Numbered from the stretch's first letter, positions 4,145-60,823 are shown. The stretch is 64,000 nt of DNA from a virus (IMGVR_UViG_3300031565_000020:758-64757); one strand, 5' to 3'. The notes: generated from the letters alone by a model not told the origin. Program-made: numbers and translations.

Positions 4145-4513
4145 ATGAACAAAGACAAACAGCAGTATGAATTTAAAGCACGTAGCAGCAGCACGGCAGT
4201 TCAAAAACAACGTGCTATATTAGATGATCGTGCGTATGACTGGTACTTTGATTTTGCGTTGGATTACATTGAAGTTAGTATAGATGTGCGAGGTTTAGAC
4301 TTTTCATTCAAACCGGATGAAATGAGATTGTACATCAAAGCAAGGACTATGAACATCAAAGCAAGGACTATGATTCCTAATTCAAAAGAATGGTTTACGG
4401 TTGTATTTAAAAGCCTTAAGCAGTCCGGAATTATTAAACAAGTGTTGACTGGTAATGTACACGGTATTGTATATGACAATCCGTTTTTAGGGTACTTGCT
4501 GGCAAGTAGGTAG
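4145..4513 (+). CDS. hypothetical early protein
   Basis: AAGGTGGT leader before ATG 4145; followed by hairpin AAAGGCGG/CCGCCTTT. Confidence 0.7.
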   Translation: MNKDKQQYEFKARSSSTAVQKQRAILDDRAYDWYFDFALDYIEVSIDVRGLDFSFKPDEMRLYIKARTMNIKARTMIPNSKEWFTVVFKSLKQSGIIKQVLTGNVHGIVYDNPFLGYLLASR

Positions 4514-4728
4514 TAACAAAGGCGGTGTAAAAGCCGCCTTTGTTATAATATATGGAGTAAAACAATGACAGTAAATAAATGTAGCATCCGTGGCATACAT
4601 TATTACACATACACAGGAAATAATGTATTTATTGCTGGTGATCTGGTTGGTATATGCCACGGATGCTACACAACGAGAAAAGAAATACAACGAAAGTGGC
4701 TACGAAGAGCCAACATAAGGAAATATAA

Positions 4729-35040: not shown

Positions 35041-35697
35041 TTATTTTCTCCTTTGTTTTTCTGTTTTATTCCCATATTTCCAGCCGACAGAACATCCATT
35101 ATTTATATTCCAATTCACAACATCAAGATTGGCTTGCCCCTGGGGAGTGCCTGGTTTGATTTCCATATTGTTGTTATTTAAATAAAGGCGTGTAAGTCCC
35201 ATAAGTCCATTAAGCGGACTTATGGGACTTATTGAGTTACCGTCTAAATCAAGGTCCGTAAGTCCACTTAATGGGCTGATGTCGCTTATTGAATTGCTGT
35301 ATAAATAAAGGTATTCACGCTCTGTAAGTCCTCTTAATGGGCTGAGGTCACTTATTGAGTTGTATGATAAATCAAGATATGTAAGCGCTGTAAGCCCACT
35401 TAATGGGCTTATGTCACTTATTTTGTTGTCGTCTAAATCAAGGGATGTAAGCGCTGTAAGCCCGCTTAATGGGTTTATGTCGCTTATTGAGTTGTTATAT
35501 AAATTAAGGTCTGTAAGCGTTGTGCAGTATTCTAAACCGGCAATATTTGAAATCTTTTTCATACTAGCACTTAATGATTTTATCAATACCAAATCAAAAG
35601 CCAAAATCTTTCCAGTTGGCTTGCCAATCTTTAAACGGATGACAGATTCTAAATTTGGATCAGGAAAATTCACAACCATATTATTTTCATTTTTCAT
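35041..35697 (-). CDS. internalin-type LRR protein 7 (5 internal modules, one shortened by 3 aa)
   Basis: VNFPDPNLE N-cap; LxxLxLxxNxIxDISPLxxLxx repeats; MEIKPGT..GQ.NLD C-cap. Confidence 0.92.
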   Translation of the reverse strand: MKNENNMVVNFPDPNLESVIRLKIGKPTGKILAFDLVLIKSLSASMKKISNIAGLEYCTTLTDLNLYNNSISDINPLSGLTALTSLDLDDNKISDISPLSGLTALTYLDLSYNSISDLSPLRGLTEREYLYLYSNSISDISPLSGLTDLDLDGNSISPISPLNGLMGLTRLYLNNNNMEIKPGTPQGQANLDVVNWNINNGCSVGWKYGNKTEKQRRK

Positions 35698-36554
35698 TTA
35701 TTTTCTCCTCTGATTTCCGTTTTATTTCCATATTTCCAGTTAACGTCACACTCATTATCCAGATGCCTGTTAACAATATCAAGGTTAGTTTGTCCCTGGG
35801 TGGTGCCTGGTTTGATTTCCATGTCGTTGTTCTGTAAATAAAGGTATTTAAGCGCTGTAAGCCTGTTTAATGGTGTGATGTCACTTATTGAGTTGTTAGC
35901 TAAATGAAGGTATGTAAGAGCTGTAAGGCCGCTTAATGGGCTGATATCAGTTATTGAGTTGTTATCTAAACCAAGGATTTCAAGCGCTGTAAGCCTGCTT
36001 AATGGGCTTACGTCAGTTATTGAGTTGTATGATAAACAAAGTTCTGTAAGCCCTGTAAGCCTGCTTAATGTGCTTATGTCAGTTATTGAGTTACCGTCTA
36101 AATAAAGGTCTTCAAGTTCTGCAAGTCCACTTAATGGGCTGATATCACTTATTGAGTTGTTATCTAAATGAAGATATGTAAGCGCTGTAAGTCCGCTTAA
36201 TGGACTGATGTCACTTATTAAGTTATAGTATAAATAAAGTTCTGTAAGTGCTGTAAGCCTGCTTAATGAGCTTATGTCGGTTATTGAGGTGTTGTGTAAA
36301 TCAAGGGATGTAAGCTCTGTAAGCTCTCTTATTGGGCTTAGATCACTTATTGAGTTGTTATCTAAACCAAGGTATGTAAGAGCTGTACAACATTCTAAAC
36401 CGGTAATATTTGAAATATCTTTATTGCTAGCACTTAATGATTTTATTCCGAACAAATCACAAGCCAAAATCTCCCCAATTGGCTTGTTGATCTCTAAACG
36501 GATGATAGATTCTAAATTTGGATCAGGAAAATTCACAACCATATTATTTTTCAT
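35694..36554 (-). CDS. internalin-type LRR protein 6 (8 internal modules)
   Basis: Same caps; 22-aa repeats. Confidence 0.92.
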   Translation of the reverse strand: MKNNMVVNFPDPNLESIIRLEINKPIGEILACDLFGIKSLSASNKDISNITGLECCTALTYLGLDNNSISDLSPIRELTELTSLDLHNTSITDISSLSRLTALTELYLYYNLISDISPLSGLTALTYLHLDNNSISDISPLSGLAELEDLYLDGNSITDISTLSRLTGLTELCLSYNSITDVSPLSRLTALEILGLDNNSITDISPLSGLTALTYLHLANNSISDITPLNRLTALKYLYLQNNDMEIKPGTTQGQTNLDIVNRHLDNECDVNWKYGNKTEIRGENK

Positions 36555-37086
36555 TTATTTCTCCTTTGTTTTCAGTTTTATTCCCATATTTCCAGTTAAC
36601 ATAACAACCATTATCTATATGCCAATTAACAACATCAAGATTAGTCTGCCCTTGGGTAGTGTCTGGTTTGATTTCCATGTCGTTGTAATTTAAATCAAGG
36701 TATGTAAGAGCTGTAAGCCCACTTAATGGACTTATGTCACTTATTTTGTTGTTATCTAAATAAAGCTTTGTAAGCTTTATAAGTCCACTTAATGGACTTA
36801 TGTCAGTTATTAAGTTACCGTCTAAATAAAGTTCTGTAAGCTTTATAAGTCCATTAAGTGGACTTAGGTCACTTATTGAGTTGTCATTTAAACTAAGGTA
36901 TATAAGCGCTGTGCAACATTCTAAACCGTTAATATTTGAAATATCCTTAAAACCAGCAATTAATGATTTTATCACGATCAAATCAGATTCTAAAATATCC
37001 CCAGTTGGTTTATTGATCTTAAAACGGATGATAGCTTCTAAATTTGGATCAGGGAAATTCACAGCCATATTATTTTTATTTTTCAT
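36544..37086 (-). CDS. internalin-type LRR protein 5 (3 internal modules)
   Basis: Same caps; 22-aa repeats. Confidence 0.92.
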   Translation of the reverse strand: MKNKNNMAVNFPDPNLEAIIRFKINKPTGDILESDLIVIKSLIAGFKDISNINGLECCTALIYLSLNDNSISDLSPLNGLIKLTELYLDGNLITDISPLSGLIKLTKLYLDNNKISDISPLSGLTALTYLDLNYNDMEIKPDTTQGQTNLDVVNWHIDNGCYVNWKYGNKTENKGEINEK

Positions 37087-37816
37087 TTATTTCTCCTTTG
37101 TTTTCCGTTTTATTTCCATATTTCCAGCCGACATAACACCCATTATTTAGATGCCAATTAACAACATCAAGATTTATTTGCCCTTGGGGAGTGCCTGGTT
37201 TAATTTCCATGTCGTTGTTATCTAAATCAAGGGATGTAAGCGCTGTAAGCCCACTTAATGGGCTGATATCAGTTATTGAGTTGTTAGATAAACCAAGGTG
37301 TTTAAGCGCTGTAAGCCCACTTAATGTGCTGATATCAACTATTTCGTTCATGTCTAAATCAAGGAATGTAAGCCCTGTAAGGCTGCTTAATGGTGTTAGG
37401 TCAGTTATTTTGTTGCCGGATAAATCAAGGGATGCAAGCCCTTTAAGGCCGCTTAAAGGGCTTATGTCGCTTATTAAGGTGACAGATAAATCAAGGGATG
37501 TAAGCTCTGTAAGCCCTCTTAATGGGCTGATGTCACTTATTGAGTTATCAGATAAATCAAGGCCTGTAAGAGCTGTAAGCCTGCTTAATGGGCTGATGTC
37601 GCTTATTGAGTTGCCGTATAAATAAAGGGATGTAAGCGCTGTACAGTACTCTAAACCGGTAATATCAGAAATATCTTTATTGCTAGCACCTAATGATTTT
37701 ATTTTGACCAACTCAGATGATAGGATATCCCCTGTTGGTTTGTTGATCTTAAAACGGATGACATCTTCAAGATTTGGATCAGGAAAATTCACACCCTTAT
37801 TATTTTTATTTTTCAT
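37076..37816 (-). CDS. internalin-type LRR protein 4 (6 internal modules)
   Basis: Same caps; 22-aa repeats. Confidence 0.92.
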   Translation of the reverse strand: MKNKNNKGVNFPDPNLEDVIRFKINKPTGDILSSELVKIKSLGASNKDISDITGLEYCTALTSLYLYGNSISDISPLSRLTALTGLDLSDNSISDISPLRGLTELTSLDLSVTLISDISPLSGLKGLASLDLSGNKITDLTPLSSLTGLTFLDLDMNEIVDISTLSGLTALKHLGLSNNSITDISPLSGLTALTSLDLDNNDMEIKPGTPQGQINLDVVNWHLNNGCYVGWKYGNKTENKGEINEK

Positions 37817-38672
37817 TTATTTCTCCTTTGATTTCTGTTTTATTCCCATATTTCCAGTTAACATAACATCCGTCATTCAGATGCCAATTAACAATATCAA
37901 GATTAGTTTGTCCCTGGGTGGTGTCTGGTTTGATTTCCATGTCGTTGTTAGATAAATCAAGGTATGTAAGCTTTGTAAGTTCGCTTAGTGGACTTATGTC
38001 ACTTATTGAGTTGCCGTCTAAATAAAGTTCTGTAAGCTTTATAAGTCCACTTAATGGACTGAGGTCACTGATTGAGTTGACATTTAAACTAAGGTATATA
38101 AGCTTTATAAGTCCACTTAATGGACTTATGTCACTTATTGAGTTGTCGCATAAACCAAGGCGTGTAAGCGCTGTAAGCCCGTTTAATGGGGTGATATCAG
38201 TTATTGAGTTGCTATTAAAACTAAGTGATGTAAGCGCTGTAAGCCTGCTTAATGGTGTTAGGTTAGTTATTTTGTTGCCGGCTAAACCAAGAAATGTAAG
38301 CTTTGTAAGCCCTCTTAATGGGCTTATGTCTCTTATTGAGTTGTTGTCTAAACCAAGGCGTGTAAGTCCTGTAAGTTCACTTAATGGGCTTAGGTCACTG
38401 ATTACGTTGTATGATAAACTAAGGTATATAAGCGCTGTAAGTTCGCTTAATGGACTGATGTCACTTATTGAGTTGCTATTTAAACTAAGGTCTGTAAGAG
38501 CTGTACAGTACTCTAAACCAGTTATATTTGAAATACCCTTAAAACCAGCAATTAATGATTTTATCCCGACCAAATCAGATGATAGAATATCCCCTTTTGG
38601 CTTGTTGATCTCTAACCGGATGACAGCTTCAAGATTTAGATCAGGAAAATTCACAACCATATTATTTTTCAT
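37806..38672 (-). CDS. internalin-type LRR protein 3 (8 internal modules)
   Basis: Same caps; 22-aa repeats. Confidence 0.92.
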   Translation of the reverse strand: MKNNMVVNFPDLNLEAVIRLEINKPKGDILSSDLVGIKSLIAGFKGISNITGLEYCTALTDLSLNSNSISDISPLSELTALIYLSLSYNVISDLSPLSELTGLTRLGLDNNSIRDISPLRGLTKLTFLGLAGNKITNLTPLSRLTALTSLSFNSNSITDITPLNGLTALTRLGLCDNSISDISPLSGLIKLIYLSLNVNSISDLSPLSGLIKLTELYLDGNSISDISPLSELTKLTYLDLSNNDMEIKPDTTQGQTNLDIVNWHLNDGCYVNWKYGNKTEIKGEINEK

Positions 38673-39266
38673 TTATTTTCTCCTCTGATTTTCTGTTTTA
38701 TTTCCATGTTTCCAGTTAACGTCACACCCATTATTCAGATGCCAATTAATAACATCAAGATTAGTTTGTCCCTGGGTAGTGCCTGGTTTTATTTCCATGT
38801 TGTTGTTATATAAATCAAGTTCTGTAAGAGCTGTAAGTTCACTTAATGGGCTGATGTCACTTATTTTGTTGTCATATAAACGAAGGAATGTAAGCGTTGT
38901 AAGTCCTCTTAATGGACTGATGTCACTGATTGAGTTGCTATCTAAATAAAGCTTTGTAAGCTTTGTAAGCCCACTTAATGGACTGATGTCACTGATTGAG
39001 TTGCTATCTAAATAAAGCTTTGTAAGCTTTGTAAGCCCACTTAACGGACTGATATTGGTTATTGGGTTATCTTCTAAATCAAGTTCTGTAAGCGCTGTAC
39101 AGTATTCTAAGCCGGTAATATCAGAAATATCAGACGAACTAGCATATAATTCAGTTATCACGATCAAATCAGATTCTAAAATATCCCCAGTTGGTTTATT
39201 GATCTTAAAACGAATGATATCTTCTAGATTTTTATCAGGGAAATTCACAACCATATTATTTTTCAT
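38673..39266 (-). CDS. internalin-type LRR protein 2 (4 internal modules)
   Basis: Same caps; contains an exact 66-bp tandem duplication. Confidence 0.92.
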   Translation of the reverse strand: MKNNMVVNFPDKNLEDIIRFKINKPTGDILESDLIVITELYASSSDISDITGLEYCTALTELDLEDNPITNISPLSGLTKLTKLYLDSNSISDISPLSGLTKLTKLYLDSNSISDISPLRGLTTLTFLRLYDNKISDISPLSELTALTELDLYNNNMEIKPGTTQGQTNLDVINWHLNNGCDVNWKHGNKTENQRRK

Positions 39267-46729: not shown

Positions 46730-48133
46730 ATGAACGATATTGAAACTGTGGCAAGTGCTGACACGTGGTATTTGTATGGCGATGGATTGCTTTTGGAATT
46801 AGGCATGGATACCACTTTACTTTTGTCACGAATAATAAATATATACACCCAATTGAATTTTACAACCGATTACTTTGAGTGTAGTGTTGTATCTATAAGA
46901 AGAGAGATTGAAATGTCTGCTCATAGACAACGGATTTCAATAGAAAAACTAACAAAGTTGGGAATAATAAAGACTAAAAATAGCGATTTGCCTGCAACAC
47001 GAAAAGTAAAACTTTGTAACACAAACATTATCAATACTGTAAAGGATGTTTATGGTGGTGAAGAGGGGGGTGGTTTTGAGCAAAACAAAAGTGTCGAATT
47101 TGAGTTGATTTTTCCAAAAACACAGTTATATATTACATATATAACATTATATTCTCTTTATTATTTATTAATAATAAATAATAGAGTTATCAAAAATGAT
47201 AACTCCTATTTGTCCACTTTAAATTTTTTTTCAAATAGGAAAATACTTTCTTTTGAAGAGAGAGAAAAAAAAACAAAAGAAAAAAACAATGAACTAAAAA
47301 ACAAAATTTTATCCGATGAAAATTTCTTGGAAATTATAAGAACATTTTCAGATTTTCCGGCCCCGGCAGTTACACACAATGTGAACAAAATAACGAACAC
47401 ACTTGCAGAAGCGTACAGTCTATACCAGCACTTGCTTAACGGTACATTTTTCGATAATTGTAAACAAATCACAGAGCCGTGGATCGTTGCCAATAAAGGC
47501 GATTGGAGTAAATTAAAGGAAAAAAAATGGAAACACAAGAAAATTATGAAAGTACTGAAAGAGGCCGGAAAACCATATTTACCAGACTATTACCCATTTT
47601 CAAAAGATGACAAAAAAAAGATTTTGCCGAAGAGCTTGCCACAATTATTTTATAATCCCTTCGTAAAAAAATGCCCGTCTTCTTTTATTCGTGCCTATTT
47701 ACAGCCGCCGAAACTATCTCCGGTACAAGAAATCACAGACAAGTACCCGGGAATTACTACTGAAATTTCGCAGATGTGCGACGTAACACCTCGGATAATT
47801 ATACGTGCTATCACATATTTAGAGCCCTTCTACAATGAAATTTGTAACAAGTCGATTATTTTTGAAGATGGTAAAAAATACACCCGGTTATCCCTTGACA
47901 TGGAGTTTTCGCGCCATTTGGGAACGTTTGTAAAGTTTTTAGGCGTGTATGTCGAGTGGTTAGGGTCTTTATCGGAAAAATGGCGCAACCAGCAATCAGT
48001 AAGGCTCGCGGGTGTTACGCGTGGTTGGTTCGACGAGTACTTGAAAAAAAATTATGATATTATTTTAGAGCCTAATGACAGCTATTTACAACGGTTGGCG
48101 CGAGATTTGAAAAGAATGAAATCCGGTTATTGA
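46730..48133 (+). CDS. putative replication initiator-like DNA-binding protein
   Basis: N-terminal winged-helix-like pattern (I..E..MS...Q...I.KL..LGII......P), AT-rich linker; divergent from helicase. Confidence 0.55.
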   Translation: MNDIETVASADTWYLYGDGLLLELGMDTTLLLSRIINIYTQLNFTTDYFECSVVSIRREIEMSAHRQRISIEKLTKLGIIKTKNSDLPATRKVKLCNTNIINTVKDVYGGEEGGGFEQNKSVEFELIFPKTQLYITYITLYSLYYLLIINNRVIKNDNSYLSTLNFFSNRKILSFEEREKKTKEKNNELKNKILSDENFLEIIRTFSDFPAPAVTHNVNKITNTLAEAYSLYQHLLNGTFFDNCKQITEPWIVANKGDWSKLKEKKWKHKKIMKVLKEAGKPYLPDYYPFSKDDKKKILPKSLPQLFYNPFVKKCPSSFIRAYLQPPKLSPVQEITDKYPGITTEISQMCDVTPRIIIRAITYLEPFYNEICNKSIIFEDGKKYTRLSLDMEFSRHLGTFVKFLGVYVEWLGSLSEKWRNQQSVRLAGVTRGWFDEYLKKNYDIILEPNDSYLQRLARDLKRMKSGY

Positions 48134-48153
48134 AAAAAAATTAAAAAAATATC

Positions 48154-48182
48154 TTGACATGTTAAAAAAAATAGGTTATTAT
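48154..48182 (+). promoter_or_regulatory. promoter of the RNA island
   Basis: TTGACA-17nt-TATTAT; predicted +1 near 48189 coincides with first stem strand. Confidence 0.65.
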
Positions 48183-48188
48183 GGCGAA

Positions 48189-48680
48189 CAATTAACGATG
48201 ACAAGGGAAACCAGGGAGACGGCAAGATGAAAAACTTAGTGAAAATTATTTTTATAACGATCGTGAATAATCTCACTAAGAAAAATAATTTTGTAATAAA
48301 ATCCTTTACGACACGTGTGCTTACAGTTTATGATGGTTTATGGCCTGTAAAAAACACTACTTCGGAAGCAGGAACGGTGACAAGGCTGATAACCGTAAAC
48401 CGTGATAGCAAAAGGATTGCTAATACCATTCGTATCAATGGTCTACCTGGTTATGGTTAATTGAGGTTTAGCATGGTCTGTGATTTTGGATCAGTTCGGT
48501 GGGTGTCATACACTTTCCGGAAGGCAAAATCTAGAATCGGATTGACTTCTGTTGTGTTTGTGCAACGTGCAACGTCGCATGATAAACATGATGGGAAAAA
48601 TCAGGATCTTGTTGAAGGGGTTCGGGGTGGTGCTGCCAGGTCTCACCCCGAAAAACCTTTAACGAATGATTATTTTTTTT
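48189..48680 (+). ncRNA. candidate large structured non-coding RNA
   Basis: At least 7 nested stems closed by 48189-96/48456-63, then a long hairpin 48611-48663 and T-run. Confidence 0.5.
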
Positions 48681-48693
48681 GTAGGGTGGTCAT

Positions 48694-48879
48694 GTGTCTA
48701 ATATTTGGAATGATGGGATTTGTAATGCGTGTGGTGCAGTAGTTGAAGAAATGTCAAGTGCAAGACTTGGTCAAGGTTTTGATTATCAAAATAGGTGTAC
48801 CAATTGCAAATGTGTTAACCATTGCTGGCATCATTGCGGAGATATGGAAGAACTTGATTATTACAAGCATAATCAATAA
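48694..48879 (+). CDS. small Cys/His-rich protein
   Basis: GTG start, AGGGTGG RBS; CNACG...CTNCKC..H.WH. Confidence 0.55.
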   Translation: MSNIWNDGICNACGAVVEEMSSARLGQGFDYQNRCTNCKCVNHCWHHCGDMEELDYYKHNQ

Positions 48880-48993
48880 GTGTATTGACAGAGTAGTATG
48901 GTACTAACGCTACCGTTCAGGCCTTACAAGCTTGGTAAATCGGATGGTTTGTACTGTACTCTGTGAATGCACTTGTATTTAAAGCCTGTTAAA

Positions 48994-49067
48994 CGGGGTA
49001 TATGTATGATTTGGTGTAATAAACAGGTCGTACCTGTTTATCGGAGGTTCAAGTCCTCCCGCCCCGA
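48994..49067 (+). ncRNA. aberrant tRNA-like element 1
   Basis: Acceptor CGGGGTA/CGCCCCG, T-arm GGAGG-TTCAAGT-CCTCC, 9-bp stem with 5-nt loop in place of anticodon arm. Confidence 0.6.
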
Positions 49068-49120
49068 ATACATACAGTCTGCCAGGTAGGCAGACTGTAT
49101 AATCTAAAGTTTTTTTCAAA

Positions 49121-49213
49121 CGGGCTGTGGTCTAATTGGGAGCGGCTATCTGATCCATAGCAGTAAGACAAGGGCAAACGCCTTTATTGTGAGTTCGAAT
49201 CTTACCGGTCCGA
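49121..49213 (+). ncRNA. aberrant tRNA-like element 2
   Basis: Acceptor CGGGCTG/CGGTCCG, T-arm GTGAG-TTCGAAT-CTTAC, two internal hairpins, no canonical cloverleaf. Confidence 0.6.
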
Positions 49214-49282
49214 TTGAAAAAACAGTATTGCTAATTTTTAATTTCATTAATACTTATGGGGTGTCACTCTCATAAGTATTAT

Positions 49283-49353
49283 GGCCTAATAATCTAATGG
49301 TAGGATATTAGATTTTCGATCTAAGTACCGGGGTTCGACTCCCTGTTAGGCTA
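49283..49353 (+). tRNA. tRNA-Glu(TTC), no encoded CCA
   Basis: GGCCTAA/TTAGGCT acceptor, D-loop AATGGT, TTAGA-TT[TTC]GA-TCTAA, CGGGG-TTCGACT-CCCTG. Confidence 0.8.
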
Positions 49354-49553
49354 ATGAACAAGCACGAACTGAGCAATAGGAATTATGATAAACGACACAC
49401 TTTAAGTTTTTAATTCCTCCCTTTTGAGCTATACGAGAACAAGGTAGACACAAAAGGGCAGCGTGTTACGTGGGTGGCGAAGGAAAGTCGATGACTAAAC
49501 CCGTTTACCGCTAGACGAACAAGCGGAAATCTAATTAGTACAAAGCAGGATTA

Positions 49554-49591
49554 TACCCGCGCCTGTTGAAATAATGGCGGGTACATTTTTT
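49554..49591 (+). terminator. terminator-like hairpin ending the RNA island
   Basis: TACCCGC/GCGGGTA followed by T-run. Confidence 0.55.
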
Positions 49592-49791
49592 AAAAATTAT
49601 ATTTATATATGGCTACTCCTTTTAATTTATTTTACCGGTTACATATATTGATAATATGTAACCGGGTTATTTTACACGCAATCTCTTTTTGAGATCATTA
49701 TATATATTCCATTTTAGTCAGTTCTTTTTTGCCGGTTGTTATTTATCCTTTTTGTAATAACCGGTTATTTTTTTCTTAAAGTGAGACGTTA

Positions 49792-51264
49792 ATGAATTTT
49801 ACGATTGATAGAGTTGACAATAAAAAATTAAAAATGCTTGTTATATCAATGATAGTGTCAACAAAAGTGTGCAGTGAAATTATACCTGTACTGAGAGTTA
49901 ATCTTGATTTATTTTACGAGGTGTTCGAAAGTTTCTATAAGCCGGTTGTAACCTGGATCATTGAATTTTACGAACTTACAGAGAAAGCACCAGAAAAACA
50001 TATACAAAATATATTTGACGACAAATCAGAAAAACTTGAAGGTACTGAGAAAAGTTTAATTCAGACTTTTCTGAAAACTCTTAATGATGAATATGTGAAA
50101 TATGAAAAATACAATGAAGATTACGCAATTGATCAGGCAAAAATATACTTGCGTGAAGCGAATCTGGCATTACTCACAAAAAAAATAAGTGCTGCAACAA
50201 AAGCAGGGAAACTAGATGATGCTGAAAATTATATTGCAACATATAACCAGATCGAAGCCAAAACACAGATATGCCAAGAGACGTCTATTGTGTATGGTAA
50301 AGAATTTTGGGATGATGATCCGGATAACAATCCCGATTCACTTTTTATAATGCCTGGTGCACTGGGCGACATTGCAGGCCCATTTGCACGCGGTGATTTT
50401 GTAGCGTTTAACGGCCCCAAAAAGCGCGGGAAATCATTCTGGCTCAAGCAAATAGCAATATGGGCGATGGAAAGTAATCTCAATGTAATCTATTTCAATA
50501 TGGAAATGGCACATAAGAAATGCATACGCAGATTTAGACAATATTTCAGTGCCGAAACTCTACGATTGAAAGATAAAAAAACTGGATATGATGAAATCAG
50601 AATTCCGAAATTCATTGAAGCGGGTGACGAGTCTGGACAATGGGAAATGTCATACACAATGAAAAAGAAAAAGGGTGTAACAAAAGAGAAATCTAAAAAT
50701 AAACAAAAACAATTACAAATCAAATACAGGGGCGATATCCGATTCATTACGTATGCAGCAAACTCATTAACGCTGTCTATTGCTGATAAGAAAATTGACG
50801 AGTATTTCAACAATGGCTTTGTTGCAGACGTGATAATATTTGACTCAATGGATTTGTTGAAATCTGGAAAACGGGACCAGGTACGGCAGGAAATCAATGA
50901 AAAATGGGGTGTAGGTCGAGAACTCGCACAAAAAAAACACGCGTTAATTGTTACAGTATCGCATACAAACAAGGAAACTAATAAAAGAGCTATTACAGGT
51001 TCGGACTTTCAAGAGGATGATAGAAAAGGCAATTGGTTAACTGCTGGATTTGGGCTTAACCAAACAGAGGATGAAAAAGAGACCGGTATTATGCGCGTGA
51101 ATTGTTTAGTGAGTCGTGACAATTTTTTCACATCAAAAAATTTTGTATATGTTTTGGAGTGTCGAGATATTGGGAAAATTTATCTGGATTCAAGACATCA
51201 ATGGGAAATAAAAAATAATGAGAGGAGTAGCAATGAAAATAAGCAAAAGCCAGCTTATCAGTAA
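49792..51264 (+). CDS. replicative DNA helicase (DnaB/gp41-like)
   Basis: GPKKRGKS Walker A, YFNMEM, IIFDSMDL, SH.NK. Confidence 0.85.
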   Translation: MNFTIDRVDNKKLKMLVISMIVSTKVCSEIIPVLRVNLDLFYEVFESFYKPVVTWIIEFYELTEKAPEKHIQNIFDDKSEKLEGTEKSLIQTFLKTLNDEYVKYEKYNEDYAIDQAKIYLREANLALLTKKISAATKAGKLDDAENYIATYNQIEAKTQICQETSIVYGKEFWDDDPDNNPDSLFIMPGALGDIAGPFARGDFVAFNGPKKRGKSFWLKQIAIWAMESNLNVIYFNMEMAHKKCIRRFRQYFSAETLRLKDKKTGYDEIRIPKFIEAGDESGQWEMSYTMKKKKGVTKEKSKNKQKQLQIKYRGDIRFITYAANSLTLSIADKKIDEYFNNGFVADVIIFDSMDLLKSGKRDQVRQEINEKWGVGRELAQKKHALIVTVSHTNKETNKRAITGSDFQEDDRKGNWLTAGFGLNQTEDEKETGIMRVNCLVSRDNFFTSKNFVYVLECRDIGKIYLDSRHQWEIKNNERSSNENKQKPAYQ

Positions 51265-60034: not shown

Positions 60035-60823
60035 ATGAAATTATTATTTACAGCTGATTGGCACATTAGAACCACACAGCCCGTAAATCGAATTGACGAT
60101 TTTTTACTGCTACAAAAAGAAACTGTAAAATTCATATACGATACTGCATTTGATAATCATGTTGATTATGTAGTTATTGCTGGTGATCTTTTCCATTGCG
60201 CAAGGGACCGATATCCACAGGAAATGTTAATCTTTCTTAATGATAGCATGTTACAGTTTTCTACTGTGTACATACCGGGTAATCACGATCTGTTATACCA
60301 TGCAGACACTAAGGAATATATGTCAAATATAGGATTGCTTAATCGTATGTCTGACAGATCAGACATACCGAACAATATTGATGTCTATCATCAATATTGT
60401 TCAATTGTGGTACCACCATATATCGAAAAAGGCACCACTGCAAAAGATCTATGCGAACAGTCAATCAAAGACGTTATATTAGTTGGTGATAATCACCAAT
60501 CATTTGTGTATCGGCACCCGGAAACTATGCAATTATTAGTTAATCCTGGTTGTATCACGCGCCAAAAGCTATCAGAGAAAGATTACAAACCCTCAATATA
60601 TATTTATGATTTTGATAATAAAAGCGCACAGCGTGTGTATCTCTTAGATAAGAGAGATAACGTGTTTGCAGAAAATAGAGCAAAAAACTTGAAATCAATA
60701 GAATCATATCGACGCATTGACGGTGTTGAAGGTCTTGATTTTGAAGAAAAAATATTAAATTATAATAAAAAAATGATGGTAAAAGAACCTGTCAAGGCAA
60801 TAATCATGGAGTGTTTGTCATGA
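60035..60823 (+). CDS. Mre11/SbcD-like metallophosphoesterase nuclease
   Basis: ADWH, AGDLF, GNHD, GDNH, NPG. Confidence 0.9.
   Translation: MKLLFTADWHIRTTQPVNRIDDFLLLQKETVKFIYDTAFDNHVDYVVIAGDLFHCARDRYPQEMLIFLNDSMLQFSTVYIPGNHDLLYHADTKEYMSNIGLLNRMSDRSDIPNNIDVYHQYCSIVVPPYIEKGTTAKDLCEQSIKDVILVGDNHQSFVYRHPETMQLLVNPGCITRQKLSEKDYKPSIYIYDFDNKSAQRVYLLDKRDNVFAENRAKNLKSIESYRRIDGVEGLDFEEKILNYNKKMMVKEPVKAIIMECLS

What the first reader, a model, noticed from the sequence alone, without database searches (positions are those of the whole stretch)
48189..48680. Candidate ~490-nt structured non-coding RNA
Seen: just after a promoter, nested stems CAATTAAC(48189)/GTTAATTG(48456), AACCAGG(48209)/CCTGGTT(48446), CTTAGTGA(48235)/TCACTAAG(48273), AATCCTTT(48300)/AAAGGATT(48411), TTACAG(48321)/CTGTAA(48345), ACGGT(48374)/ACCGT(48392), ACCATT(48425)/AATGGT(48437) form a closed multi-branch domain. 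A second region ends in a long hairpin (48611-48663) and T-run. Overlapping ORFs look unconvincing. Established: large phage ncRNAs such as GOLLD and ROOL often lie near tRNAs. Inference: possibly a new class.
Basis: partly seen in the sequence, partly recalled or inferred. Interest (0 to 1): 0.7.

Follow-up and report, generated by a model that had tools for sequence, protein, structure and literature searches.

The report
Folded small-gene transcript in a phage
The stretch is a real, unusually well-folded transcript of a soil phage, but its first half most likely encodes a small protein, so it is probably a tightly folded small-gene messenger with a structured non-coding tail and not a new class of large non-coding RNA.

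Summary
All 7 stems are at the stated coordinates. A near-consensus sigma-70 promoter (11 of 12, 48154-48182) lies just upstream. A hairpin (48605-48671, -33.8 kcal/mol) followed by T8 closes the unit. Folding beats dinucleotide shuffles: z -5.59 for the whole, -5.55 and -5.13 for the halves.

The reading as one ~490-nt ncRNA of a new class is only partly supported. The 5' closed domain coincides with a 77-codon ORF (48227-48460). That ORF has a strong Shine-Dalgarno site, gene-like codon usage and strong three-base periodicity (0 of 400 stop-free random sequences reach it).

The 3' half (48464-48680) looks non-coding. Its fold is strand-specific (z -5.13 on +, -1.39 on -) and rich in G-U pairs (20 of 78). 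Its ORF has random-like codon usage and is cut short in the sister haplotype.

There is no Rfam match. The only relative that holds the region is a 96%-identical haplotype, so covariation cannot be tested. One of 34 coding control segments folds as well.

Best reading: a small ORFan gene in a 5'-3'-closed mRNA with a structured 3' tail and terminator. Interest is modest.

The parts
48154..48182 (+). Sigma-70-type promoter, TTGACA-17-TATTAT, preceded by an A-rich tract. The predicted start of transcription is about 48189.
   Evidence: 11 of 12 matches. One of 10 sites with 11 or more matches on both strands of the window. The position of the start is inferred from the usual spacing.
48189..48228 (+). 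5' arm of the closing rod. It covers the predicted first transcribed base, the 5' UTR, the Shine-Dalgarno site GGGAGA (48213-48218) and the first two bases of the ATG.
   Evidence: MFE and centroid folds. Inverted repeat I1, 33 nt, 76% complementary. Duplex -29.4 kcal/mol, reached by 6 of 9093 other 40-mers.
48227..48460 (+). ORF77, a probable small basic protein of 77 aa with no known relatives. ATG start, TAA stop.
   Evidence: Shine-Dalgarno strength; codon usage; periodicity, 0 of 400; intact with K62E in L002. Against: no homologue and low-confidence models.
48424..48463 (+). 3' arm of the closing rod. It covers the last codons and the stop codon of ORF77.
48464..48604 (+). Structured 3' region, two hairpin domains (48475-48547 and 48549-48594). 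Probably non-coding.
   Evidence: With the terminator hairpin: z -5.13 on +, -1.39 on -. 20 of 78 pairs are G-U. Domain limits.
48605..48680 (+). Long hairpin (48605-48671, -33.8 kcal/mol) followed by T8 (48673-48680): an intrinsic-terminator-like end of the unit.
   Evidence: It was not called by the simple scan. In the sister haplotype an 18-nt insertion interrupts the T-run.
48473..48742 (+). ORF89 (ATG start), a doubtful reading frame over the 3' region.
   Evidence: Codon score not above stop-free random sequences (z 0.83). Periodicity p 0.18. Stops after 67 aa in L002. Median-strength Shine-Dalgarno site.
48694..48879 (+). ORF61, a Cys/His-rich small ORF just after the terminator-like hairpin. 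Probably a gene, which implies some read-through.
   Evidence: Periodicity p 0.003. Shine-Dalgarno -8.1 kcal/mol. No + strand promoter-like site (at least 9 of 12) between 48334 and 49671. Only a 98%-identical cluster found. C38R and G49S in the sister haplotype.

Best explanation
This is a short early-type transcription unit of a lytic-looking soil phage. A strong host-type promoter (48154-48182) starts an RNA at about 48189. Its first 275 nt are the messenger of a 77-aa basic ORFan protein (48227-48460). The very first transcribed bases pair with the stop-codon region, and a ~40-nt imperfect rod encloses the whole reading frame and partly covers the ribosome-binding site and the start codon.

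The next ~220 nt are a non-coding, heavily paired 3' region: two hairpin domains, then a long hairpin with a U8 tract that ends most transcripts. Some read-through feeds a second small ORF and the tRNA and tRNA-like genes downstream.

Inferred mechanism: while the RNA is being made, the Shine-Dalgarno site and the AUG are open, so translation can start co-transcriptionally. The finished RNA closes on itself. That should protect both ends from exonucleases and damp further initiation. The 3' domain acts as a stabiliser and terminator.

Shown here: the promoter match, the fold statistics, the coding signals and the strand asymmetry. Inferred only: the transcript ends, translation, stability and read-through.
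For: Promoter: 11 of 12 matches, one of 10 such sites in the window.

Coding of ORF77:
- Shine-Dalgarno duplex -8.2 kcal/mol; only 2.6% of 2219 ATGs in the window have one as strong.
- Codon score 0.206 against 0.23 +/- 0.08 for 149 real-gene chunks. Reached by 0.75% of 400 stop-free random sequences and by 2 of 62 spurious ORFs.
- Periodicity chi2 24.8 against 7.5 +/- 3.7, reached by 0 of 400.
- Frame intact in L002.

Fold:
- z -5.55 and -5.13 for the two halves. For the 5' half the centroid is almost equal to the MFE (-74.5 against -74.6).
- Rod duplex reached by 6 of 9093 genomic 40-mers.
- Codon choice is tuned to the fold: synonymous-codon shuffles give z -2.55, with 4 of 150 as good. Among 34 control genes, 1 is as low.
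- Unpaired probability of the Shine-Dalgarno site and AUG is 0.74-0.86 and 0.42-0.78 in nascent RNA of 60-100 nt. It falls to 0.52 and 0.34 in the full RNA.

3' half as RNA-level and non-coding:
- z is -5.13 on + and -1.39 on -. 20 of 78 pairs are G-U.
- ORF89 has a random-like codon score and periodicity and is truncated in L002.

Terminator: hairpin of -33.8 kcal/mol followed by T8.
Against: - ORF77 has no homologue. Only itself was found among 5.8 billion clusters and among 1.84 billion representatives. Nothing was found in 50,697 phage records by tblastn, nor in Pfam, PHROGs, NCBIfam or PADLOC.
- Its predicted structures are poor: the ESM Atlas model has pLDDT 0.39 and AlphaFold2 gives a mean of 50.
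- The two haplotypes differ at only 2 positions in ORF77 (1 synonymous, 1 not), so selection on the protein is not shown.
- Of the 8 substitutions in the 492 nt, 3 keep a predicted pair through a wobble change, 3 break one and 2 lie unpaired. None is compensatory.
- Strong folds are not unique to this place. One of 34 coding control segments has z -5.86, and 60251-60570 has z -5.02 from perfect palindromes.
- The - strand of the 5' half also folds well (z -3.64), so part of that signal is plain inverted repeats.
- ORF89 has a usable Shine-Dalgarno site and borderline periodicity over its first 67 codons (p 0.035).
- The T-run is interrupted in the sister haplotype.
Confidence: 0.55

Rival explanations
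1. One reading: the whole ~490 nt is one non-coding structured RNA of a new class, made from its own promoter and ended by the hairpin and U-run. ORF77 is then accidental.
For: Fold z is -5.59, -5.55 and -5.13. The 5' half has a well-defined ensemble. It lies beside tRNA and tRNA-like genes in a 1.66-kb stretch, and 48880-49125, which holds no + strand ORF over 40 aa, also folds with z -5.88. ORF77 has no protein homologue and poor models. The ribosome site and AUG are partly paired in the full-length fold.
Against: An accidental ORF would need four things at once. It must be stop-free for 77 codons, which happens in about 0.2% of random sequences of this composition (400 of 181,381). It needs an ATG with a Shine-Dalgarno site as strong as the top 2.6% of ATGs. 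It needs gene-like codon usage (0.75% of 400; 2 of 62). And it needs periodicity reached by 0 of 400. There is no Rfam match and no covariation. Three distant relatives of the phage (loci L005, L008, L009) have protein genes, not this region, upstream of the helicase.
Confidence: 0.12
2. An ordinary small-gene operon (ORF77, perhaps ORF89, ORF61) whose strong folding is incidental. This phage carries many inverted repeats, so the structure would have no function of its own beyond a terminator.
For: Control coding segments reach similar z: 1 of 34 at -5.86 and another at -4.52. 60251-60570 has z -5.02. Perfect palindromes drive part of the 5'-half signal (the - strand has z -3.64). All three ORFs have usable Shine-Dalgarno sites. 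ORF61 shows periodicity (p 0.003).
Against: Three adjoining, non-overlapping segments all have z at or below -5, whereas such values occur in about 1-2 of 34 controls. The 3' half folds on one strand only and is rich in G-U pairs. The rod joins the predicted first base to the stop codon. The synonymous-codon test lies in the lowest ~3%. ORF89 does not look coding.
Confidence: 0.2
3. A type I toxin-antitoxin-like module. The 5'-3'-closed, translationally damped messenger would encode a small toxic protein, and an antisense RNA would be made from the opposite strand across the two-way terminator.
For: The whole frame is enclosed by a 5'-3' long-distance pairing that touches the ribosome site. 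This is the arrangement described for the aapA1 and hok messengers (PMC5416894, PMC6733600, PMC9841398; search listing and abstract starts only). The hairpin has an A-run before it and a U-run after it, so it could end transcripts from both strands.
Against: ORF77 is 77 aa and strongly basic, with only a short hydrophobic N-terminal stretch. That differs from the short membrane peptides typical of the class (sequence; class features recalled). The - strand promoter-like sites near it score only 9 of 12, and the region holds 28 such sites in all against 22.2 +/- 5.5 in shuffles. PADLOC, Pfam and NCBIfam give no match. The ribosome site stays half open (0.52).
Confidence: 0.05
4. A regulatory leader or attenuator. 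The structured RNA and its terminator would control how much transcription reads through into ORF61 and the tRNA and tRNA-like genes.
For: No + strand promoter-like site (at least 9 of 12) lies between 48334 and 49671, so ORF61 and the tRNAs appear to depend on read-through. The two haplotypes differ just at the U-run by an 18-nt insertion.
Against: No riboswitch, T-box or other leader family matches, up to E 10. No alternative anti-terminator pairing was tested or seen. The simple promoter scan can miss weak promoters.
Confidence: 0.08

Closest known systems
GOLLD and ROOL large ornate RNAs
   Same: Phage-borne, hundreds of nucleotides long, multi-branched, near tRNA genes. PMC12286853 was seen as a search listing and abstract start only.
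   Different: No match to any Rfam 15 model, at gathering thresholds or up to E 10. It is shorter, half of it is a probable protein gene, and there is no family of homologues.
Messengers of type I toxins (hok, aapA1) with 5'-3' long-distance pairing
   Same: A small ORF enclosed by pairing of the transcript's 5' end with its 3' part, touching the ribosome-binding site, behind a strong promoter, in a compact stable fold (papers listed, abstract starts only).
   Different: The protein is not a short hydrophobic peptide. No convincing antisense gene was found. No family match. Here the closing 3' arm lies at the stop codon, not at the RNA's 3' end.
Dual-function RNAs and 3'-UTR-derived small RNAs (such as SgrS/SgrT, RNAIII/hld, SR1/SR1P; recalled, not tested)
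   Same: One transcript that combines a small ORF with a large structured non-coding part ending in a terminator hairpin.
   Different: No target pairing or processing site has been identified. There are no expression data and no homology.
Small stable RNAs in the phage T4 tRNA gene cluster (recalled; the search found no paper on them)
   Same: Structured RNAs of unknown role encoded beside phage tRNA genes.
   Different: The T4 species are co-processed with tRNAs from one precursor. Here the unit has its own promoter and a terminator upstream of the tRNAs. No sequence comparison was possible.

Membership tests
GOLLD / ROOL / any Rfam 15 family | Score at or above the family's gathering threshold against its covariance model | tested here: not met
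   The whole window gives only two tRNA hits at gathering thresholds. In 47900-49800 at E up to 10, nothing credible lies in 48189-48680: only STnc310 at 21 bits over the promoter and mir-2006 at 17 bits on the - strand.
Structured non-coding RNA (new class) | Fold significantly more stable than shuffled sequence | tested here: met
   z is -5.59, -5.55 and -5.13, and 0 shuffles are as good. However, 1 of 34 coding controls is as low.
Structured non-coding RNA (new class) | Homologues that keep the helices through compensatory changes | tested here: inconclusive
   Only about 96%-identical haplotypes hold the region: L002/L007, L006 and contigs of runs X4-X6. Of the 8 substitutions, 3 keep a pair by wobble, 3 break one, 2 are unpaired and 0 are compensatory. 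Pattern scans found only the same record and one unrelated GC-rich hit.
Structured non-coding RNA (new class) | No protein-coding signal | tested here: not met
   ORF77 shows a Shine-Dalgarno site, gene-like codon usage and periodicity. The feature is met only for the 3' half.
Protein-coding gene (ORF77) | Start codon with a ribosome-binding site, gene-like codon usage and three-base periodicity | tested here: met
Protein-coding gene (ORF77) | Conserved homologues or purifying selection on the protein | tested here: inconclusive
   No homologue. Only 2 substitutions between the haplotypes, 1 synonymous and 1 K62E.
Intrinsic terminator | Stable G+C-containing hairpin followed directly by a U-run | tested here: met
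   Hairpin 48605-48671 (-33.8 kcal/mol), then T8 at 48673-48680. It is longer than the simple scan allows, so it was not listed. The U-run is interrupted in L002. Termination itself cannot be tested here.
Type I toxin-antitoxin | Short hydrophobic or membrane toxin peptide | tested here: not met
   77 aa, 12 K/R against 3 D/E, and a hydrophobic run of only about 10-13 residues (sequence). The AlphaFold2 model is of low confidence.
Type I toxin-antitoxin | Antisense RNA gene overlapping or beside the toxin messenger | tested here: inconclusive
   Only 9-of-12 promoter-like sites on the - strand, in a region that holds 28 such sites in all against 22.2 +/- 5.5 in shuffles. No RNA data.
Type I toxin-antitoxin | Long-distance 5'-3' pairing that limits translation of the full-length messenger | tested here: met
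   The rod 48189-48228 / 48424-48463. Unpaired probability of the Shine-Dalgarno site falls from 0.74-0.86 in nascent RNA to 0.52 in the full RNA. These are predictions only.

The most novel reading that the evidence does not exclude
The transcript is a dual-function or largely non-coding phage RNA. The 220-nt, G-U-rich 3' domain, possibly together with the closed 5' domain, would be a stable structured RNA of a so far undescribed class. It would be made early from a strong promoter beside a cluster of aberrant tRNA-like genes and would act on host or phage RNA metabolism. ORF77 would then be secondary or a second function.
Probability: 0.15. Interest if true: 0.6.

Novelty: new member of a known kind. 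Interest (0 to 1): 0.28.

Why it matters
If the best reading is right, this is one more small phage gene without known relatives, though with an unusually complete self-closure of its messenger. Its 5' end pairs with the stop-codon region, and a strand-specific structured tail follows. That makes it a compact natural case for studying how phages stabilise or gate small early transcripts.

It also carries a caution for ncRNA scans. A very low folding z-score, a promoter and a terminator are not enough. Here simple coding tests (ribosome site, codon usage, periodicity) overturn the 'non-coding' reading for half of the candidate, and coding regions of the same phage can fold just as well. Since the lineage is known from only two near-identical haplotypes, nothing general can be claimed yet.

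Tried and rejected
Searches for relatives:
- Rfam at gathering and at loose thresholds: no family for the region.
- blastn of 47900-49000 against GenBank phages: no match. tblastn of ORF77, ORF61 and the helicase against the same collection: no match.
- Relatives through the flanking proteins: viral contigs gave only one near-identical record and one distant one, L005. Metagenome contigs gave two near-identical and three distant loci, of which L010 is too short to show the upstream region. Genome contigs gave none.
- The distant relatives L005, L008 and L009 have protein ORFs and no tRNA or gap upstream of the helicase. The one tRNA-like gene in L005's record sits between genes elsewhere in that record.
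- DNA search of the two held relative records: only the near-identical copy. L006, L008 and L009 were not held, so they were not searched.
- Exact-pattern scans of viral contigs: the known sister record plus one unrelated GC-rich hit, L011.

Expression:
- No RNA holder is listed among the sequencing runs.
- The contigs of four soil DNA runs show only the two haplotypes and one mixture of them.

Protein level:
- Pfam, PHROGs, NCBIfam and PADLOC give nothing for ORF77, ORF89, ORF61 or the 467-aa neighbour.
- ESM Atlas hits are below 0.9, which is chance level. The AlphaFold2 single-sequence model is poor, so no fold search was run.

Ideas considered and dropped:
- Origin of replication: only two or three short direct repeats, and the 3' half folds on one strand only.
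- Degenerate tRNAs inside 48189-48680: no tRNA hit there up to E 10.
- Paralogues in the same phage: none.
- The six other places as complementary to the 5' arm as the real 3' arm lie in tandem paralogous genes on the opposite strand. I judge this a chance likeness.

Not done:
- No covariance model was built, because two near-identical sequences give no information beyond the BLAST and pattern searches.

Full report
CONTEXT

The window is nearly all of a 64,757-base IMG/VR virus record rated 100% complete. It is found in soil metagenomes and has about 35% G+C. PHROG matches show a tailed phage with its own replication module: primase, two helicases, DNA polymerase, a DNA polymerase processivity factor, clamp loader and a UvsX-like recombinase.

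The finding lies in a 1.66-kb stretch (48134-49791). On one side is a 467-aa protein of no known family (46730-48133). On the other is a DnaB-like helicase (49792-51264; phrog_19, E 1e-31). Downstream in the same stretch lie:
- a tRNA-Glu (49282-49354);
- an aberrant 93-nt tRNA-like gene (49121-49213);
- a sub-threshold tRNA-like element (48994-49067, 27.3 bits against a cut-off of 29).

THE OBSERVATION

Four of them dominate the Boltzmann ensemble. Three are replaced by other pairings, and the fold forced to hold all seven is 10 kcal/mol worse than the MFE. The domain 48189-48463 is nevertheless closed by a long imperfect rod in both the MFE and the centroid.

The promoter is real by consensus: TTGACA-17-TATTAT, 11 of 12. 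It is one of 10 sites that good on both strands of the window. By my comparison with the ORF list, several of the others sit just upstream of ORF starts in the right orientation.

The 3' hairpin is 48605-48671 (-33.8 kcal/mol), followed directly by T8.

Folding against dinucleotide shuffles:
- whole unit: z -5.59;
- 5' half: z -5.55;
- 3' half: z -5.13.
No shuffle folded as well.

The duplex between the two rod arms (-29.4 kcal/mol) is reached by 6 of 9093 other 40-mers of the window. All six lie in one stretch of tandem paralogous genes.

HOW UNUSUAL IS THE FOLD IN THIS PHAGE?

- In a scan of 2550 windows of 275 nt (both strands, MFE regressed on composition) the exact 5' domain would rank about 41st and the 3' domain about 52nd.
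- The top window is 48851-49125 on the + strand, just downstream. That segment has z -5.88.
- Among 34 mid-gene control segments the mean z is -0.92 (sd 1.47). One reaches -5.86 and one -4.52.
- The segment 60251-60570, inside an SbcD-like gene, has z -5.02 because of perfect palindromes.

So a z near -5.5 is rare here (about 3-6% of controls) but is not proof of an ncRNA. What stands out is three adjoining segments that all reach -5 or below.

CODING OR NOT: THE 5' HALF

ORF77 (48227-48460) fills the closed domain. The evidence that it is a gene:
- Ribosome site. It has an ATG preceded by GGGAGA. The duplex with the anti-Shine-Dalgarno motif is -8.2 kcal/mol, as strong as or stronger than in 71% of 34 long genes. 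Only 2.6% of 2219 ATGs in the window have one as strong.
- Codon usage. The frame-specific score is 0.206. For 149 leave-one-out chunks of real genes it is 0.23 +/- 0.08. For stop-free random sequences of the same dinucleotide make-up it is 0.06 +/- 0.06, and 0.75% of 400 reach the observed value. For 62 spurious ORFs inside genes it is 0.034 +/- 0.095, and 2 reach it.
- Periodicity. Independently of any training set, chi2 is 24.8 against 7.5 +/- 3.7 for stop-free random sequences, reached by 0 of 400. That is the 79th percentile of real-gene chunks.
- Conservation. The frame is intact in the sister haplotype, with one change, K62E.

The evidence against:
- No relative in 5.8 billion clusters, in 1.84 billion representatives or in GenBank phages, and no family.
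- Poor structure models.

I weigh the positive sequence signals more heavily. This phage lineage is so sparsely sampled that even its helicase has only four relatives at 38-42% identity and nothing closer except identical copies.

CODING OR NOT: THE 3' HALF

ORF89 (48473-48742) covers the 3' half.
- Its codon score (0.069) is not above stop-free random sequences (z 0.83) and lies at the 1st-2nd percentile of real genes.
- Its periodicity is not significant (p 0.18), or borderline (p 0.035) over the first 67 codons.
- In the sister haplotype an 18-nt insertion brings an in-frame TAG, so the frame ends after 67 aa.

The fold of this half is strand-specific: z -5.13 on +, -1.39 on -. Of its 78 pairs, 20 are G-U, against 8 of 86 in the 5' half. 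This points to selection at the RNA level on the + strand. I read it as non-coding, with about 70-75% confidence.

STRUCTURE AND CODING TOGETHER

Permuting synonymous codons within ORF77 weakens the fold. The native MFE is -74.6 against a mean of -64.2, z -2.55, and 4 of 150 permutations are as good. One of 34 control genes is as low. This gives modest support that codon choice is tuned to the fold.

In simulated nascent RNAs of 60-100 nt the Shine-Dalgarno site and the AUG are mostly unpaired (0.74-0.86 and 0.42-0.78). In the full RNA the values are 0.52 and 0.34.

COMPARATIVE EVIDENCE

Only one other haplotype holds the region: L002/L007, L006, and contigs of three soil runs (X4-X6), one of which is a mixture of the two haplotypes. 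It is about 96% identical over the 1.5-1.6-kb stretch around the region.
- It has 2 differences in the 5' half and 6, plus the indel, in the 3' half. The background between the two phages is mostly 1-6 differences per 250 nt.
- Of the 8 substitutions, 3 keep a predicted pair by a wobble change, 3 break one and 2 are unpaired. None is compensatory.
- Distant relatives of the phage (helicase 36-41% identical) carry protein ORFs and no tRNAs at the matching place. The whole RNA-rich stretch is therefore specific to this lineage.

Covariation, the decisive test, cannot be run with the data that exist.

VERDICT

The feature is real, but it is best described as a small ORFan gene in a self-closed, highly folded messenger. 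A structured non-coding 3' tail and a terminator follow, upstream of a second small ORF and a cluster of tRNA and tRNA-like genes.

Confidence:
- this reading: 0.55;
- pure ncRNA of a new class: about 0.12;
- incidental structure: about 0.2;
- attenuator: about 0.08;
- type I toxin-like module: about 0.05.

Noticed in passing
window 49121-49213 (+): A 93-nt tRNA-like gene. ARAGORN reports a four-base 'anticodon' (ccat). The Rfam tRNA alignment (32.7 bits) shows a 26-nt insertion in the D-loop region and a shortened anticodon loop. It could be an aberrant or decayed tRNA, or a tRNA-like RNA. The gene is also present in the sister haplotype.
   Followed up: partly
window 48994-49067 (+): A sub-threshold tRNA-like element (27.3 bits against a cut-off of 29; not called by ARAGORN) with a good T-arm and acceptor stem. 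Its T-stem substitution in the sister haplotype keeps the pair (C-G to U-G).
   Followed up: partly
window 48851-49125 (+): The most strongly folded 275-nt window of the whole 64 kb (residual -4.73 sd; z -5.88 for 48880-49125). It holds a ~95-nt imperfect hairpin (48877-48975) over the end of ORF61, the tRNA-like element, and a perfect 12-bp hairpin (49072-49100) followed after 10 nt by T7. Nine substitutions fall in the long hairpin in the sister haplotype: 4 keep pairs by wobble, 3 break pairs and 2 are unpaired.
   Followed up: partly
window 35041-39266 (-): Six tandem paralogous genes with very similar starts (MKNN..VNFPDPNLE..) and conserved upstream and C-terminal segments. By eye the repeats look leucine-rich; no family search was run. 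A conserved segment near their ends happens to be as complementary to the 5' arm of the candidate as its real partner is.
   Followed up: no
window 60251-60570 (+): A cluster of perfect palindromes (stems of 14, 10 and 8 bp) inside an SbcD/metallophosphoesterase-like gene, of which only the first ~104 residues match the family. z is -5.02, and the scan residuals are similar on both strands, so the signal is probably at DNA level. No Rfam match.
   Followed up: partly
window 4401-4725 (both strands): The second most structured place in the window (residuals -4.2 to -4.5 sd on both strands), among small ORFs without family matches. No credible Rfam match.
   Followed up: partly
window 48133-48182: The A-rich tract and promoter match short parts of many other, more abundant contigs in the four soil runs (5-9 differences in about 45 nt, depth 40-78). 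This may reflect a promoter type shared by other elements in those soils, or just low sequence complexity.
   Followed up: no
window 48198-48230 (+): A 10-codon upstream ORF starts 9 nt after the predicted transcript start, and its TGA overlaps the ATG of ORF77 (ATGA). It has no ribosome-binding site, so it is probably not meaningful.
   Followed up: no
window 48694-48879 (+), ORF61: A Cys/His-rich 61-aa ORF with significant periodicity. In the sister haplotype one cysteine of a CxxC pair is replaced (C38R), and G49S also differs. No relatives were found beyond a 98%-identical cluster.
   Followed up: partly
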